Assembly: GCF_024298765.1 (NCBI RefSeq)
Contig: NZ_CP101210.1
Strand: one strand, 5' to 3'
Origin: Escherichia coli
GTDB taxonomy: Bacteria > Pseudomonadota > Gammaproteobacteria > Enterobacterales > Enterobacteriaceae
Length of the DNA: 64,000 bases
Position 1 is the stretch's first letter. Each line of letters begins with the position of its first letter. Positions 9,074-14,967 of this stretch are shown piece after piece. Under the pieces are notes generated by a model. The model searched no databases. It was not told where the DNA came from and saw nothing but the letters and a program-made list of their open reading frames with translations. A program made the position numbers and the translations under genes.

Positions 9074-10582
<1,509 letters not shown>

Positions 10583-10770
10583 CTAAAGTCTCCAAAAAAT
10601 TATTATCGGCAATGTCGAAACTTGCCGTTATATCTGCCACCGGAACGGGGTAACAGAGTTTATGTTTTACCAGGGCGACCGTATCCTGCCGGAAGCGCTG
10701 GTTATTCACAATCGATTTAACACACCATTTACATTAAATTTTAGTGCTCAGCGACACTATTTTTCATCAG

Positions 10771-10978
10771 GTTGCACTCTCTCACATTTTTTGCGGTTGC
10801 ACCTTTCAAAAATGTTAACTGCCGCAGAGAAAAAGTCTGAGTTATTTTTTTAATCCCTGTCATATCGATTTCGTTTATTAACATTTCATTCATTTTTAAG
10901 CTTGCTACGCAGGTCACATTTAACACAGTTGCACAAAGTTGCAACATCATGGATATTTCACGATAACGTTAAGTTGCA
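10771..10978. promoter_or_regulatory. put control region with five GTTGCA PutA operator motifs between the divergent putP and putA
   Basis: GTTGCA at 10771-10776, 10796-10801, 10928-10933, 10938-10943 and 10973-10978 within the 422-bp intergenic region. Confidence 0.65.
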
Positions 10979-11004
10979 CCTTTCAGAACAACAGGAGTAA
11001 TGGC

Positions 11005-14000
11005 ATGGGAACCACCACCATGGGGGTTAAGCTGGACGACGCGACGCGTGAGCGTATTAAGTCTGCCGCGACACGTATCGATCGCACGCCACACTGGTTA
11101 ATTAAACAGGCGATTTTTTCTTATCTTGAACAACTGGAAAACAGCGATACTCTGCCGGAGCTACCTGCGCTGCTTTCTGGCGCTGCCAATGAGAGCGATG
11201 AAGCACCGACTCCGGCAGAGGAACCACACCAGCCTTTCCTCGACTTTGCCGAGCAAATTTTGCCCCAGTCGGTTTCCCGCGCCGCGATCACCGCTGCCTA
11301 TCGCCGTCCGGAAACCGAAGCGGTTTCGATGCTGCTGGAACAAGCTCGCCTGCCGCAGCCAGTTGCTGAACAGGCGCACAAACTGGCGTATCAACTGGCC
11401 GATAAACTGCGTAATCAAAAAAACGCCAGTGGTCGCGCAGGTATGGTTCAGGGGTTATTGCAGGAGTTTTCGTTGTCATCGCAGGAAGGCGTGGCGCTGA
11501 TGTGTCTGGCGGAAGCGTTGTTGCGTATTCCCGACAAAGCCACCCGTGATGCGTTAATTCGCGACAAAATCAGCAACGGTAACTGGCAGTCACACATTGG
11601 TCGTAGCCCGTCGTTGTTTGTTAATGCCGCCACCTGGGGGCTGCTGTTTACCGGCAAACTGGTTTCCACCCATAACGAAGCCAGCCTCTCCCGCTCGCTG
11701 AACCGCATTATCGGTAAGAGCGGTGAACCGCTGATCCGCAAAGGTGTGGATATGGCGATGCGCCTGATGGGCGAGCAGTTCGTCACTGGCGAAACCATCG
11801 CAGAAGCGTTAGCCAATGCCCGCAAGCTGGAAGAAAAAGGTTTCCGTTACTCTTACGATATGCTGGGCGAAGCTGCACTGACCGCCGCAGATGCACAGGC
11901 GTATATGGTTTCCTATCAGCAGGCGATTCACGCCATTGGTAAAGCGTCTAACGGTCGTGGCATCTATGAAGGTCCGGGCATTTCAATCAAGCTGTCGGCG
12001 CTGCATCCGCGTTACAGCCGCGCCCAGTATGACCGGGTAATGGAAGAGCTTTACCCGCGTCTGAAATCACTCACCCTGCTGGCGCGTCAGTACGATATTG
12101 GTATTAACATCGATGCCGAAGAGGCCGATCGTCTGGAGATCTCCCTCGATCTGCTGGAAAAACTCTGTTTCGAGCCGGAACTGGCAGGCTGGAACGGCAT
12201 CGGTTTTGTTATTCAGGCTTATCAAAAACGCTGCCCACTGGTGATTGATTACCTGATTGATCTCGCCACCCGCAGCCGTCGCCGTCTGATGATTCGCCTG
12301 GTGAAAGGCGCGTACTGGGATAGTGAAATCAAGCGCGCGCAGATGGACGGCCTTGAAGGTTATCCGGTTTATACCCGCAAGGTGTATACCGACGTTTCAT
12401 ATCTCGCCTGTGCGAAAAAGCTGCTGGCGGTGCCGAATCTAATCTACCCGCAGTTCGCAACGCATAACGCCCATACGCTGGCGGCAATTTATCAACTGGC
12501 GGGTCAGAACTACTACCCGGGTCAGTACGAGTTCCAGTGCCTGCACGGTATGGGCGAGCCACTGTATGAGCAGGTCACCGGGAAAGTTGCCGACGGCAAA
12601 CTTAACCGTCCGTGTCGTATTTATGCTCCTGTCGGTACCCATGAAACGCTGCTGGCGTATCTGGTGCGTCGCCTGCTGGAAAACGGTGCTAACACCTCGT
12701 TTGTTAACCGTATTGCTGACACCTCTTTGCCACTGGATGAACTGGTTGCCGATCCGGTCACTGCTGTAGAAAAACTGGCGCAACAGGAAGGGCAAACTGG
12801 ATTACCGCATCCGAAAATTCCCCTGCCGCGCGATCTTTACGGTGACGGGCGCGACAACTCGGCAGGGCTGGATCTCGCCAATGAACACCGGCTGGCCTCG
12901 CTCTCTTCTGCCCTGCTCAATAGTGCACTGCAAAAATGGCAGGCCTTGCCAATGCTGGAACAATCGGTCGCGGCTGGTGAGATGTCGCCCGTTATTAACC
13001 CTGCGGAACCGAAAGATATTGTGGGCTTTGTGCGTGAAGCCACGCCGCGTGAAGTAGAACAGGCGCTGGAAAGTGCGGTTAATAACGCGCCAATCTGGTT
13101 TGCCACTCCTCCGGCTGAACGCGCGGCGATTTTGCATCGCGCTGCTGTGCTGATGGAAAGCCAGATGCAGCAACTGATTGGTATTCTGGTGCGTGAGGCC
13201 GGAAAAACCTTCAGTAACGCCATTGCCGAAGTGCGCGAAGCGGTCGATTTTCTCCACTACTACGCCGGACAGGTGCGGGATGATTTCGCTAACGAAACCC
13301 ACCGTCCATTAGGGCCTGTGGTATGTATCAGTCCGTGGAACTTCCCGCTGGCGATTTTCACCGGGCAGATCGCTGCCGCACTGGCGGCAGGTAACAGCGT
13401 ACTGGCAAAACCGGCAGAACAAACGCCGCTGATTGCCGCGCAAGGGATCGCCATTTTGCTGGAAGCGGGTGTACCGCCAGGCGTGGTGCAATTGCTGCCA
13501 GGTCGGGGTGAAACCGTGGGCGCGCAACTGACGGGTGATGAACGCGTGCGCGGGGTGATGTTTACCGGTTCAACCGAAGTCGCTACGTTACTGCAGCGCA
13601 ATATCGCCAGCCGCCTGGACGCTCAGGGTCGCCCTATTCCGCTCATCGCTGAAACCGGCGGTATGAACGCGATGATTGTCGATTCTTCAGCACTGACCGA
13701 ACAGGTCGTCGTGGATGTACTGGCCTCGGCGTTCGACAGTGCAGGCCAACGTTGTTCGGCGCTGCGCGTGCTGTGTTTACAAGATGAAATTGCCGACCAC
13801 ACGTTGAAAATGCTGCGCGGCGCAATGGCCGAATGCCGGATGGGTAATCCGGGTCGCCTGACCACCGATATCGGTCCGGTGATTGATAGCGAAGCGAAAG
13901 CCAATATTGAGCGTCATATTCAGACTATGCGTAGTAAAGGCCGTCCGGTGTTCCAGGCGGTGCGGGAAAACAGTGAAGATGCCCGTGAATGGCAAAGCGG

Positions 14001-14967
14001 CACCTTTGTCGCCCCGACGCTGATCGAACTGGATAACTTTGCCGAATTGCAAAAGGAGGTCTTTGGTCCGGTGCTGCATGTGGTGCGTTATAACCGTAAC
14101 CAGCTGCCGGAACTGATCGAGCAGATTAACGCTTCCGGCTATGGTCTGACGCTTGGCGTTCATACGCGTATTGATGAAACCATCGCCCAGGTCACTGGCT
14201 CGGCCCATGTCGGTAACCTGTACGTTAACCGTAATATGGTGGGCGCAGTGGTCGGGGTGCAGCCATTCGGCGGCGAAGGGTTGTCCGGCACCGGGCCGAA
14301 AGCAGGCGGTCCGCTCTATCTCTACCGTCTGCTGGCGAATCGCCCGGAAAGTGCACTGGCAGTGACGCTCGCGCGTCAGGATGCAGAGTATCCGGTGGAT
14401 GCGCAGTTGAAAGCCGCATTGATCCAGCCGCTAAATGCACTGCGGGAATGGGCGGCAAACCGTCCAGAATTGCAGGCGTTATGTACGCAATATGGCGAGC
14501 TGGCGCAGGCAGGAACACAGCGATTGCTGCCAGGGCCGACGGGTGAACGCAACACCTGGACGCTGCTGCCGCGTGAGCGCGTGTTGTGTATTGCGGATGA
14601 TGAACAGGATGCGCTGACTCAGCTCGCCGCCGTGCTGGCGGTGGGCAGCCAGGTACTGTGGCCGGATGACGCGCTGCATCGTCAGTTAGTGAAGGCATTG
14701 CCATCGGCAGTCAGCGAACGTATTCAACTGGCGAAAGCGGAAAATATAACCGCTCAACCGTTTGATGCGGTGATCTTCCACGGTGATTCGGATCAGCTTC
14801 GCGCATTGTGTGAAGCAGTTGCCGCGCGGGATGGCGCAATTGTTTCGGTGCAGGGTTTTGCCCGTGGCGAAAGCAATATCCTTCTGGAACGGCTGTATAT
14901 CGAGCGTTCGCTGAGTGTGAATACCGCTGCTGCTGGCGGTAACGCCAGTTTAATGACGATCGGTTAA
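11005..14967 (+). CDS. putA: PutA, bifunctional proline dehydrogenase / P5C dehydrogenase and transcriptional repressor
   Basis: 1320-aa product from ATG 11005 (MGTTTMGVKLDDATRERIKSA..., AGGAG SD at 10993-10997); N-terminal ribbon-helix-helix, PRODH and ALDH domains; ORF track extends upstream to a TTG at 10939. Confidence 0.95.
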   Translation: MGTTTMGVKLDDATRERIKSAATRIDRTPHWLIKQAIFSYLEQLENSDTLPELPALLSGAANESDEAPTPAEEPHQPFLDFAEQILPQSVSRAAITAAYRRPETEAVSMLLEQARLPQPVAEQAHKLAYQLADKLRNQKNASGRAGMVQGLLQEFSLSSQEGVALMCLAEALLRIPDKATRDALIRDKISNGNWQSHIGRSPSLFVNAATWGLLFTGKLVSTHNEASLSRSLNRIIGKSGEPLIRKGVDMAMRLMGEQFVTGETIAEALANARKLEEKGFRYSYDMLGEAALTAADAQAYMVSYQQAIHAIGKASNGRGIYEGPGISIKLSALHPRYSRAQYDRVMEELYPRLKSLTLLARQYDIGINIDAEEADRLEISLDLLEKLCFEPELAGWNGIGFVIQAYQKRCPLVIDYLIDLATRSRRRLMIRLVKGAYWDSEIKRAQMDGLEGYPVYTRKVYTDVSYLACAKKLLAVPNLIYPQFATHNAHTLAAIYQLAGQNYYPGQYEFQCLHGMGEPLYEQVTGKVADGKLNRPCRIYAPVGTHETLLAYLVRRLLENGANTSFVNRIADTSLPLDELVADPVTAVEKLAQQEGQTGLPHPKIPLPRDLYGDGRDNSAGLDLANEHRLASLSSALLNSALQKWQALPMLEQSVAAGEMSPVINPAEPKDIVGFVREATPREVEQALESAVNNAPIWFATPPAERAAILHRAAVLMESQMQQLIGILVREAGKTFSNAIAEVREAVDFLHYYAGQVRDDFANETHRPLGPVVCISPWNFPLAIFTGQIAAALAAGNSVLAKPAEQTPLIAAQGIAILLEAGVPPGVVQLLPGRGETVGAQLTGDERVRGVMFTGSTEVATLLQRNIASRLDAQGRPIPLIAETGGMNAMIVDSSALTEQVVVDVLASAFDSAGQRCSALRVLCLQDEIADHTLKMLRGAMAECRMGNPGRLTTDIGPVIDSEAKANIERHIQTMRSKGRPVFQAVRENSEDAREWQSGTFVAPTLIELDNFAELQKEVFGPVLHVVRYNRNQLPELIEQINASGYGLTLGVHTRIDETIAQVTGSAHVGNLYVNRNMVGAVVGVQPFGGEGLSGTGPKAGGPLYLYRLLANRPESALAVTLARQDAEYPVDAQLKAALIQPLNALREWAANRPELQALCTQYGELAQAGTQRLLPGPTGERNTWTLLPRERVLCIADDEQDALTQLAAVLAVGSQVLWPDDALHRQLVKALPSAVSERIQLAKAENITAQPFDAVIFHGDSDQLRALCEAVAARDGAIVSVQGFARGESNILLERLYIERSLSVNTAAAGGNASLMTIG

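What the first reader, a model, noticed from the sequence alone, without database searches (positions are those of the whole stretch)
10771..10978. Five PutA operator motifs in the put control region
Five GTTGCA hexamers lie in the 422-bp divergent putP-putA intergenic region, matching the known PutA autoregulatory operator arrangement. This confirms the regulatory architecture is intact; it is not novel.
Basis: established knowledge. Interest (0 to 1): 0.12.

Follow-up and report, generated by a model that had tools for sequence, protein, structure and literature searches.

The report
PutA repressor sites between putP and putA
The five GTTGCA motifs are real and are the already well-known binding sites through which the E. 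coli proline enzyme PutA switches off its own gene and the proline transporter gene, so the finding is correct but ordinary.

Summary
Observation confirmed. Five GTTGCA hexamers lie on the + strand at 10771, 10796, 10928, 10938 and 10973. They sit in the 422-bp gap between putP (9074-10582, -) and putA (11005-14967, +). About 0.35 hexamers are expected there by chance (P about 2e-6). K-12 MG1655 has the same five at the same offsets, and PutA residues 1-52 are identical to the crystallised DNA-binding domain. The interpretation as PutA operators is supported and already known.

- Across 78 Enterobacteriaceae species, four sites (O1-O4) are invariant with fixed spacing. The fifth (O5) is exact only in Escherichia, so five sites is a lineage-specific arrangement.
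- O4 is the palindrome GTTGCAAC.
- O3 coincides with the putA -35 hexamer. O3 and O4 lie inside a published ArcA site.
- This strain has a rare variant base next to O3.

Noticed in passing: 115 bp left of O1, in the putP leader, is a hairpin (10634-10656, - strand). Its stem covaries strongly and its loop CGUUCC is invariant. It has no Rfam match, and a published RNA 3' end lies 7 nt downstream. Its function is unknown and it may be undescribed.

The parts
10583..11004 (.). put control region: the 422-bp divergent spacer between the putP and putA start codons
10771..10776 (+). Operator O1, GTTGCA (extended AGGTTGCACTC). It lies 52-57 bp upstream of the putP P1 start and 4 bp from the ymdG start codon.
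   Evidence: AGGTTGCACT is invariant in 78 of 78 species.
10796..10801 (+). Operator O2, GTTGCA (extended CGGTTGCACCT), 25 bp from O1. From memory, this is the site crystallised with PutA52.
   Evidence: The core GTTGCACC is invariant in 78 of 78 species; the preceding G is A in 3. The O1-O2 spacing is 25 bp in 77 of 78.
10928..10933 (+). Operator O3, GTTGCA. It overlaps the inferred putA -35 hexamer TTGCAC (10929-10934). This strain has A at 10927 where K-12 and the other genera have G.
10938..10945 (.). Operator O4, the palindrome GTTGCAAC. It lies 10 bp from O3, in the spacer of the putA promoter.
   Evidence: AAGTTGCAACA is invariant and the spacing is 10 bp in 78 of 78 species.
10973..10978 (+). 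Operator O5, GTTGCA, about +12 to +17 of the putA transcript and 32 nt before the ATG. It shares 15 of 16 nt with O2 (GTTGCACCTTTCA is identical). It is exact only in Escherichia.
11005..14967 (+). putA, the trifunctional repressor and enzyme. Residues 1-52 (11005-11160) form the ribbon-helix-helix DNA-binding domain.
9074..10582 (-). putP, the sodium/proline symporter and second gene repressed through these sites
10952..10957 (+). Inferred putA -10 hexamer GATATT. The start site is about 10962, derived from the published position of the ArcA site relative to the putA start.
   Evidence: GATA-T is invariant in 23 genera. The start site is derived from the PMC3798270 supplement. The hexamer assignments are my inference.
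10917..10947 (-). Published ArcA-P direct-repeat site of putA (-45 to -15). It overlaps O3 and O4.
   Evidence: PMC3798270 supplement. Coordinates were converted through the K-12 alignment.
10702..10734 (-). Published ArcA-P site at putP promoter P1 (footprint -15 to +9). The P1 start is at 10719, P4 at 10677/10676 and P5 at 10595.
   Evidence: PMC3798270; PMC2760140
10741..10767 (-). ymdG, a validated small ORF (8 aa in the K-12 RefSeq record, MKNSVAEH). PGAP annotates the same frame as a 69-aa hypothetical protein (10741-10950) lying over O1-O4.
10634..10656 (-). Conserved RNA hairpin in the putP 5' leader (not part of the original finding). It has an 8-bp covarying stem and a 7-nt loop N-CGUUCC. 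A published RNA 3' end lies at 10627.

Best explanation
These are the operator sites of the E. coli proline-utilisation (put) control region. When proline is scarce, the N-terminal ribbon-helix-helix domain of PutA binds GTTGCA-containing sites in the spacer between the divergent putA and putP genes. Three sites lie next to putA. O3 sits on the -35 hexamer, O4 sits in the promoter spacer one helical turn away, and O5 sits just inside the transcribed leader. Bound PutA there should block RNA polymerase at the putA promoter. Two sites, O1 and O2, lie 25 bp apart on the putP side and act on putP expression. When proline reduces the PutA flavin, PutA moves to the membrane, leaves the DNA and both genes are expressed.

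Shown here: the sites exist, they are non-random, their positions are identical to K-12, they are conserved, and the cognate domain is identical. Taken from the literature: physical binding and repression. My inference from published start sites: the placement of each site relative to the promoters.
For: - The five hexamers are at the stated coordinates and are about 17-fold enriched.
- Full-length putA and putP flank them.
- K-12 MG1655 has the same five sites at the same offsets.
- PutA residues 1-52 are identical to PDB 2gpe and 2rbf.
- Across 78 Enterobacteriaceae species, O1-O4 are invariant as (A/N)GGTTGCAC and AAGTTGCAACA. Spacings are fixed at 25 bp, 10 bp and 130-136 bp, while the spacer sequence between the pairs diverges freely.
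- Genomic SELEX found PutA bound only to the putA/putP spacer (PMC8249747).
- PutA is described as binding operator sites between putA and putP and repressing both (PMC5879082).
- The putA start site derived from PMC3798270 puts O3 at -34 to -29, O4 at -24 to -19 and O5 at +12 to +17.
Against: - The primary mapping paper could not be read. The number five, the split of three and two sites, and the 9-bp contact are recalled rather than checked.
- O5 is absent from every genus outside Escherichia, so it is not part of the conserved core.
- O3 and O4 also lie within an ArcA site and on the -35 hexamer, so their invariance is not evidence for PutA alone.
- O1 and O2 lie 52-82 bp upstream of the mapped putP P1 start. 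How they repress putP is not explained by simple occlusion of P1. The positions of P2 and P3 were not available to me.
Confidence: 0.93

Rival explanations
1. The hexamers next to putA (O3, O4) are conserved mainly because they form the putA -35 and spacer region and the direct repeats of the anaerobic repressor ArcA, not because PutA binds them.
For: The published ArcA site ATGTTGCAACTTTGTGCAACCATGTTAAATG (-45 to -15 of putA) covers both hexamers. putA rises 30.8-fold in an arcA mutant (PMC3798270 supplement). TTGCAC with a 17-bp spacer to the invariant GATATT fits a -35 hexamer.
Against: The same extended motif GGTTGCAC recurs at O1 and O2, about 130 bp away from the putA-side ArcA site and -35 hexamer, and is equally invariant. 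PutA binds this spacer specifically in genomic SELEX. The two roles are compatible: ArcA and PutA probably share this DNA.
Confidence: 0.04
2. The clustering of GTTGCA is a chance product of the AT-rich spacer composition.
For: The window as a whole has no excess of the hexamer (59 observed against 55.8 expected).
Against: Six copies fall in 422 bp where 0.35-0.38 are expected. None of 20,000 composition-matched simulations reached 6. Four sites are invariant in 78 species within otherwise diverged sequence.
Confidence: 0.005
3. Only four sites are the functional core. O5 is a recent, possibly dispensable addition in Escherichia rather than an integral operator.
For: Exact O5 is found only in E. 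coli, two unnamed Escherichia species and E. whittamii. It is absent from E. albertii, Salmonella, Citrobacter, Klebsiella, Enterobacter and the rest. 53 of 78 species have exactly four sites.
Against: O5 shares 13 contiguous nucleotides with O2. It lies at about +12 of the putA transcript, a good roadblock position. Other lineages have independently placed a fifth site near the putA promoter: on the - strand 42 nt before the ATG, or about 100-105 nt before it on either strand. This suggests selection for an extra site. From memory, Zhou et al. found three sites needed for putA repression.
Confidence: 0.15

Closest known systems
E. coli K-12 put control region with PutA operators O1-O5 (Zhou et al. 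2008, J Mol Biol 381:174; PDB 2rbf)
   Same: Same genes, same 422-bp spacer, and the same five GTTGCA hexamers at identical offsets. The PutA DNA-binding domain is identical.
   Different: There are five single-base differences in the spacer. Two of them (10926, 10927) touch the 5' flank of O3 (AGTTGCAC instead of GGTTGCAC), and one (10985) lies 7 nt after O5. The window haplotype over 10913-10984 is exact in only 86 of 5387 complete E. coli genomes.
Put control regions of Salmonella and other Enterobacteriaceae (Salmonella region: Hahn et al. 1988, cited in PMC5879082)
   Same: Divergent putP and putA. O1-O4 are identical in sequence, orientation and spacing.
   Different: They lack O5. Some carry a different extra site, for example a reverse-oriented TGCAAC 101-105 nt before the putA ATG in Salmonella, E. 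albertii and Kluyvera.
ArcA-P direct-repeat operators (PMC3798270)
   Same: The putA ArcA site overlaps O3 and O4, and a second ArcA site covers putP P1.
   Different: A different protein and a different signal (quinone redox state rather than proline). ArcA recognises TGTTA-like repeats at 11-bp spacing, not GTTGCA as such.

Membership tests
PutA (ribbon-helix-helix) operators of the put control region | GTTGCA core motif | tested here: met
   Five exact copies on one strand, plus a palindromic extension at O4.
PutA (ribbon-helix-helix) operators of the put control region | Location in the spacer between divergently transcribed putA and putP | tested here: met
   putP is at 9074-10582 (-) and putA at 11005-14967 (+). 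Both are NCBIfam equivalog matches over their full length.
PutA (ribbon-helix-helix) operators of the put control region | Same number and positions of sites as in the reference strain K-12 | tested here: met
   MG1655 has hexamers at the same five offsets. The spacer is 422 bp in both, with five SNPs.
PutA (ribbon-helix-helix) operators of the put control region | Cognate trifunctional PutA with an N-terminal RHH DNA-binding domain encoded next to the sites | tested here: met
   Residues 1-52 are identical to PDB 2gpe and 2rbf. The protein matches the trifunctional equivalog NF008772.
PutA (ribbon-helix-helix) operators of the put control region | Conservation of each site in orthologous control regions | tested here: inconclusive
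   Met for O1-O4 (78 of 78 species, fixed spacing). Not met for O5, which is exact only in five Escherichia species.
PutA (ribbon-helix-helix) operators of the put control region | Physical binding of PutA and proline-dependent repression through the sites | not testable with these tools
   Known only from the literature: PMC8249747 (genomic SELEX), PMC5879082, and Zhou et al. 2008, which was not retrievable.
ArcA-P direct-repeat site | Sequence match to the published K-12 sites at putA and putP P1 | tested here: met
   The putP site is identical. The putA site is identical except for the two SNPs at 10926 and 10927.
Rfam RNA families (for the putP-leader hairpin) | Match to any of 4227 covariance models | tested here: not met
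   Nothing relevant at E up to 10 in 10300-11200, on either strand.

The most novel reading that the evidence does not exclude
The hairpin in the putP 5' leader (10634-10656, - strand) is a previously undescribed cis-regulatory RNA element, conserved across the sampled Enterobacteriaceae (77 of 79 loci carry the loop motif). Its invariant loop CGUUCC would be recognised by an unknown RNA or protein partner, and it would control putP after transcription, for example through premature 3'-end formation or transcript stability. That would add a second layer of control beside PutA and ArcA.
Probability: 0.4. Interest if true: 0.45.

Novelty: already known. Interest (0 to 1): 0.14.

Why it matters
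The finding itself only confirms that a textbook autoregulatory circuit is present and intact in this strain. Three by-products have modest value.

- A comparative map shows that the ancestral enterobacterial arrangement is two pairs of sites with fixed spacing. The fifth site, used in E. coli work as part of the standard model, is a recent Escherichia addition. This matters when E. coli results are transferred to Salmonella or Klebsiella.
- O3 and O4 serve at once as PutA operator, ArcA site and -35 region. This explains their absolute invariance.
- A strongly covarying hairpin in the putP leader has no Rfam family and could be tested directly as a post-transcriptional control element of proline uptake.

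Tried and rejected
- **Primary literature.** I tried to read Zhou et al. 2008 and two PutA reviews by PubMed and PMC id. None is held. Full-text searches for PutA with GTTGCA found nothing usable.
- **CsrA and the CAGGAUA block.** I considered that the invariant block TATCCTG (CAGGAUA on the putP strand, 10683-10689) is a CsrA site in a hairpin loop. RNAalifold did not support that hairpin. The block, together with the invariant TTGTGA (10706-10711, 16-bp spacer), fits the -10 and -35 hexamers of the published putP P4 start at -94/-95. The promoter reading is simpler, although CsrA is not excluded. No paper links CsrA to E. coli putP.
- **GcvB.** The loop CGUUCCGG is the exact complement of GcvB nt 11-18. 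I recalled the GcvB sequence, and it matches E. coli genomes at 100%. However, that stretch is, by my reading of the sequence, inside a GcvB stem rather than a known seed region. An 8-mer match to some small RNA is expected by chance. Duplex predictions with GcvB or its R1 region gave no conserved site and mostly no excess over shuffles. PMC9299463 notes only an old microarray hint that putP responds to GcvB R1 in Salmonella.
- **Coding reading of the leader.** A 45-codon ORF from a GUG can be read through the leader. I rejected it because indels across genera are not multiples of three, and because the pattern is invariant loop plus covarying arms.
- **The 69-aa PGAP ORF (10741-10950).** I treat the long form as an over-extension of ymdG, because it crosses the variable, indel-rich spacer.
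- **The consensus promoter scan** found nothing useful for putA.

Full report
**1. The observation**

The window carries exact GTTGCA on the + strand at 10771, 10796, 10928, 10938 and 10973. These are the reported coordinates. A sixth copy lies on the - strand at 10940-10945, because the fourth site reads GTTGCAAC, an 8-bp palindrome.

The neighbouring ORFs are full-length PutP (9074-10582, - strand, 502 aa) and full-length trifunctional PutA (11005-14967, + strand, 1320 aa). Both match their NCBIfam equivalog models end to end. The gap between the start codons is 422 bp.

The hexamer is not over-represented in the window as a whole (59 observed, 55.8 expected). Six of the 59 fall in this one spacer, where 0.35 are expected (P about 2e-6). 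No other 422-bp stretch has as many. 20,000 composition-matched simulations never reached six.

**2. Identity of the region**

The spacer is 100% identical to E. coli strain 104 and is present in 5420 of 5426 complete E. coli genomes. From position 1048 onward the whole window is 99.99% identical to strain 104.

K-12 MG1655 has the same five hexamers at the same offsets. It has only five single-base differences in the spacer: 10873, 10912, 10926, 10927 and 10985.

PutA residues 1-52 are identical to the crystallised ribbon-helix-helix domain in PDB 2gpe and 2rbf. I recall 2rbf as the operator complex.

The papers I could read say two things. PutA binds operator sites between putA and putP and represses both (PMC5879082). 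In genomic SELEX, PutA binds only this spacer in the whole genome (PMC8249747).

The paper that defined five GTTGCA operators is Zhou et al. 2008, J Mol Biol 381:174. It is not held in the library. The following rest on my memory of its abstract:
- there are five operators;
- three are needed for putA repression and two for putP;
- the protein contacts 9 bp, the hexamer plus three flanking base pairs.

**3. Geometry relative to promoters**

Published start sites place putP P1 at -137, P4 at -95/-94 and P5 at -13 from the ATG (PMC2760140). In the window these are 10719, 10677/10676 and 10595.

The ArcA study gives two sites (PMC3798270 supplement):
- The putP ArcA site has a footprint at -15 to +9 of P1. 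It converts to 10702-10734, and the sequence matches exactly.
- The putA ArcA site ATGTTGCAACTTTGTGCAACCATGTTAAATG lies at -45 to -15 of the putA start. It converts to 10917-10947.

The second site implies a putA start near 10962. On that basis I infer the following:
- The putA -10 hexamer is the invariant GATATT (10952-10957).
- The putA -35 hexamer is TTGCAC (10929-10934), which is O3 shifted by one base.
- O4 lies in the promoter spacer at -24 to -19.
- O5 lies at about +12 to +17.

This fits steric repression of putA by the three proximal sites.

O1 and O2 lie 52-82 bp upstream of P1, so they do not simply occlude P1. A validated small ORF, ymdG, starts 4 bp from O1. It occupies window 10767-10741 on the - strand and encodes 8 aa in the K-12 RefSeq record; it was originally tagged as a 40-aa form. 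Its expression implies transcription in the putP direction from further upstream. That may be where O1 and O2 act, but the positions of P2 and P3 were not available to me.

**4. Comparative evidence**

A scan of one genome per species returned 80 loci from Enterobacteriaceae. In 78 usable species:
- O1 is always AGGTTGCACT.
- O2 always carries the core GTTGCACC; the preceding G is A in three species.
- O3 is NGGTTGCACAA in 77 of 78; the exception, E. whittamii, has GTTGCG.
- O4 is always AAGTTGCAACA.
- O1-O2 spacing is 25 bp in 77 of 78.
- O3-O4 spacing is 10 bp in all.
- O2-O3 spacing is 130-136 bp, although the intervening sequence is freely diverged and has indels.

Exact O5 occurs only in five Escherichia species: E. 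coli, a second E. coli-labelled species-level genome, two unnamed Escherichia species and E. whittamii. It is replaced by unrelated sequence in E. albertii and in every other genus. 53 of 78 species have only the four sites.

Other lineages carry different extra sites:
- a reverse-oriented copy 101-105 nt before the ATG in Salmonella, E. albertii and Kluyvera;
- a reverse-oriented copy 42 nt before the ATG in the Pluralibacter group;
- a forward copy at 100-103 nt in Pseudocitrobacter and Enterobacter mori.

So the ancestral arrangement is two pairs of sites, and the fifth site of the E. coli model is a lineage-specific gain. O5 shares 13 contiguous bases with O2.

**5. Strain-level detail**

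This strain has A at 10927 where K-12 and the other genera have G, giving AGTTGCAC at O3. The 72-nt haplotype 10913-10984 is exact in only 86 of 5387 E. coli genomes. Most differ at two positions, as K-12 does. That the two differences are the same ones in all those genomes is an inference. The hexamer itself is intact.

**6. Rivals**

Chance is excluded.

O3 and O4 are conserved for the -35 hexamer and ArcA as well as for PutA. That is very likely true, but it does not replace PutA binding, because the same extended motif is equally invariant at O1 and O2, away from the putA-side ArcA site and -35 hexamer.

**7. Noticed while footprinting: a hairpin in the putP leader**

On the putP-sense strand, 10656-10634 folds as CUGUUACC-CCGUUCC-GGUGGCAG. 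The evidence comes from 56 distinct sequences:
- The 8-bp stem changes sequence freely but keeps pairing.
- 84% of cells are paired, against 66% in shuffles and 29-45% when the partner is slid by 1-3 columns.
- 111 cells carry compensatory double changes, against 41 in shuffles and 15-33 when slid.
- G-U pairs outnumber A-C mismatches 66 to 14, which points to the putP-sense RNA rather than the other strand or duplex DNA.
- The loop CGUUCC is invariant, and 77 of the 79 loci examined carry the exact 8-mer CCGGAACG. In the one locus where a closing C-G pair changes, it becomes U-A.
- RNAalifold on the whole leader finds this helix and no other.
- No Rfam family matches.
- A covariance model built from it finds only this site in the 64-kb window, at 33 bits against 13.8 bits for the next best hit.
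- The hairpin is in transcripts from P1 and P4.
- A published 3'-end map lists an RNA 3' end at -45 of putP. This is window 10627, 7 nt after the stem (PMC7815308 supplement).

I could not identify the partner of the loop. The GcvB and CsrA ideas were examined and are not supported.

The RNA structure is well supported. A regulatory role is inferred, and I found no description of it in what I could search.

**8. Verdict**

The finding is correct and already known, and I score it low. The comparative result on O5 and the leader hairpin are the only items that go beyond the textbook picture.

Noticed in passing
window 10634-10656 (- strand); RNA 3' end at 10627: A conserved hairpin in the putP 5' leader. 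It has an 8-bp stem with many compensatory changes across 56 distinct sequences, an invariant loop CGUUCC, and a G-U bias that points to the putP-sense strand. There is no Rfam match. A published Term-seq 3' end lies 7 nt downstream. The function and the binding partner are unknown.
   Followed up: yes
window 10741-10950 (- strand): RefSeq (PGAP) annotates a 69-aa hypothetical protein lying across operators O1-O4. It is the same reading frame as the validated small ORF ymdG (8 aa in the K-12 RefSeq record, 40 aa as first tagged). The ymdG start codon is 4 bp from O1. The ATG is present in Escherichia (E. coli and E. albertii checked) but not in Salmonella.
   Followed up: partly
window 10926-10927: Two adjacent SNPs relative to K-12 (CA instead of TG) change the base 5' of O3 from the otherwise universal G to A, and also touch the third repeat of the putA ArcA site. 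The haplotype over 10913-10984 is exact in only 86 of 5387 complete E. coli genomes.
   Followed up: partly
window 10683-10689 and 10706-10711 (- strand): The nearly invariant blocks CAGGATA and TTGTGA, 16 bp apart, fit the -10 and -35 hexamers of the published putP P4 start (-94/-95). CAGGAUA would also be a good CsrA-type GGA motif in P1 transcripts, and several genera carry a further GGA in a downstream hairpin loop.
   Followed up: partly
window 614-1101 and 2418-2458: tRNA-Ser(GGA) (serX, 614-701) is followed by a 181-bp unit repeated in tandem about 2.3 times. Each copy starts with the tRNA 3' end and its terminator. A 41-nt piece of the unit recurs just beyond an IS3-family element. The window differs from strain 104 in the copy number of this unit.
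   Followed up: partly
window 1-5128: The gene order here is ghrA, serX, IS3, a DUF2726 gene, then phoH. The pgaABCD-dgcT block that I recall lying between phoH and serX in K-12 is absent. efeU (7590-8420) is annotated as an intact gene here, whereas I recall it as a pseudogene in K-12.
   Followed up: no
window 25894-26237: A 101-bp unit repeated 3.4 times (95% matches) between cbpM and torD. It looks like a REP/BIME-type intergenic repeat array.
   Followed up: no
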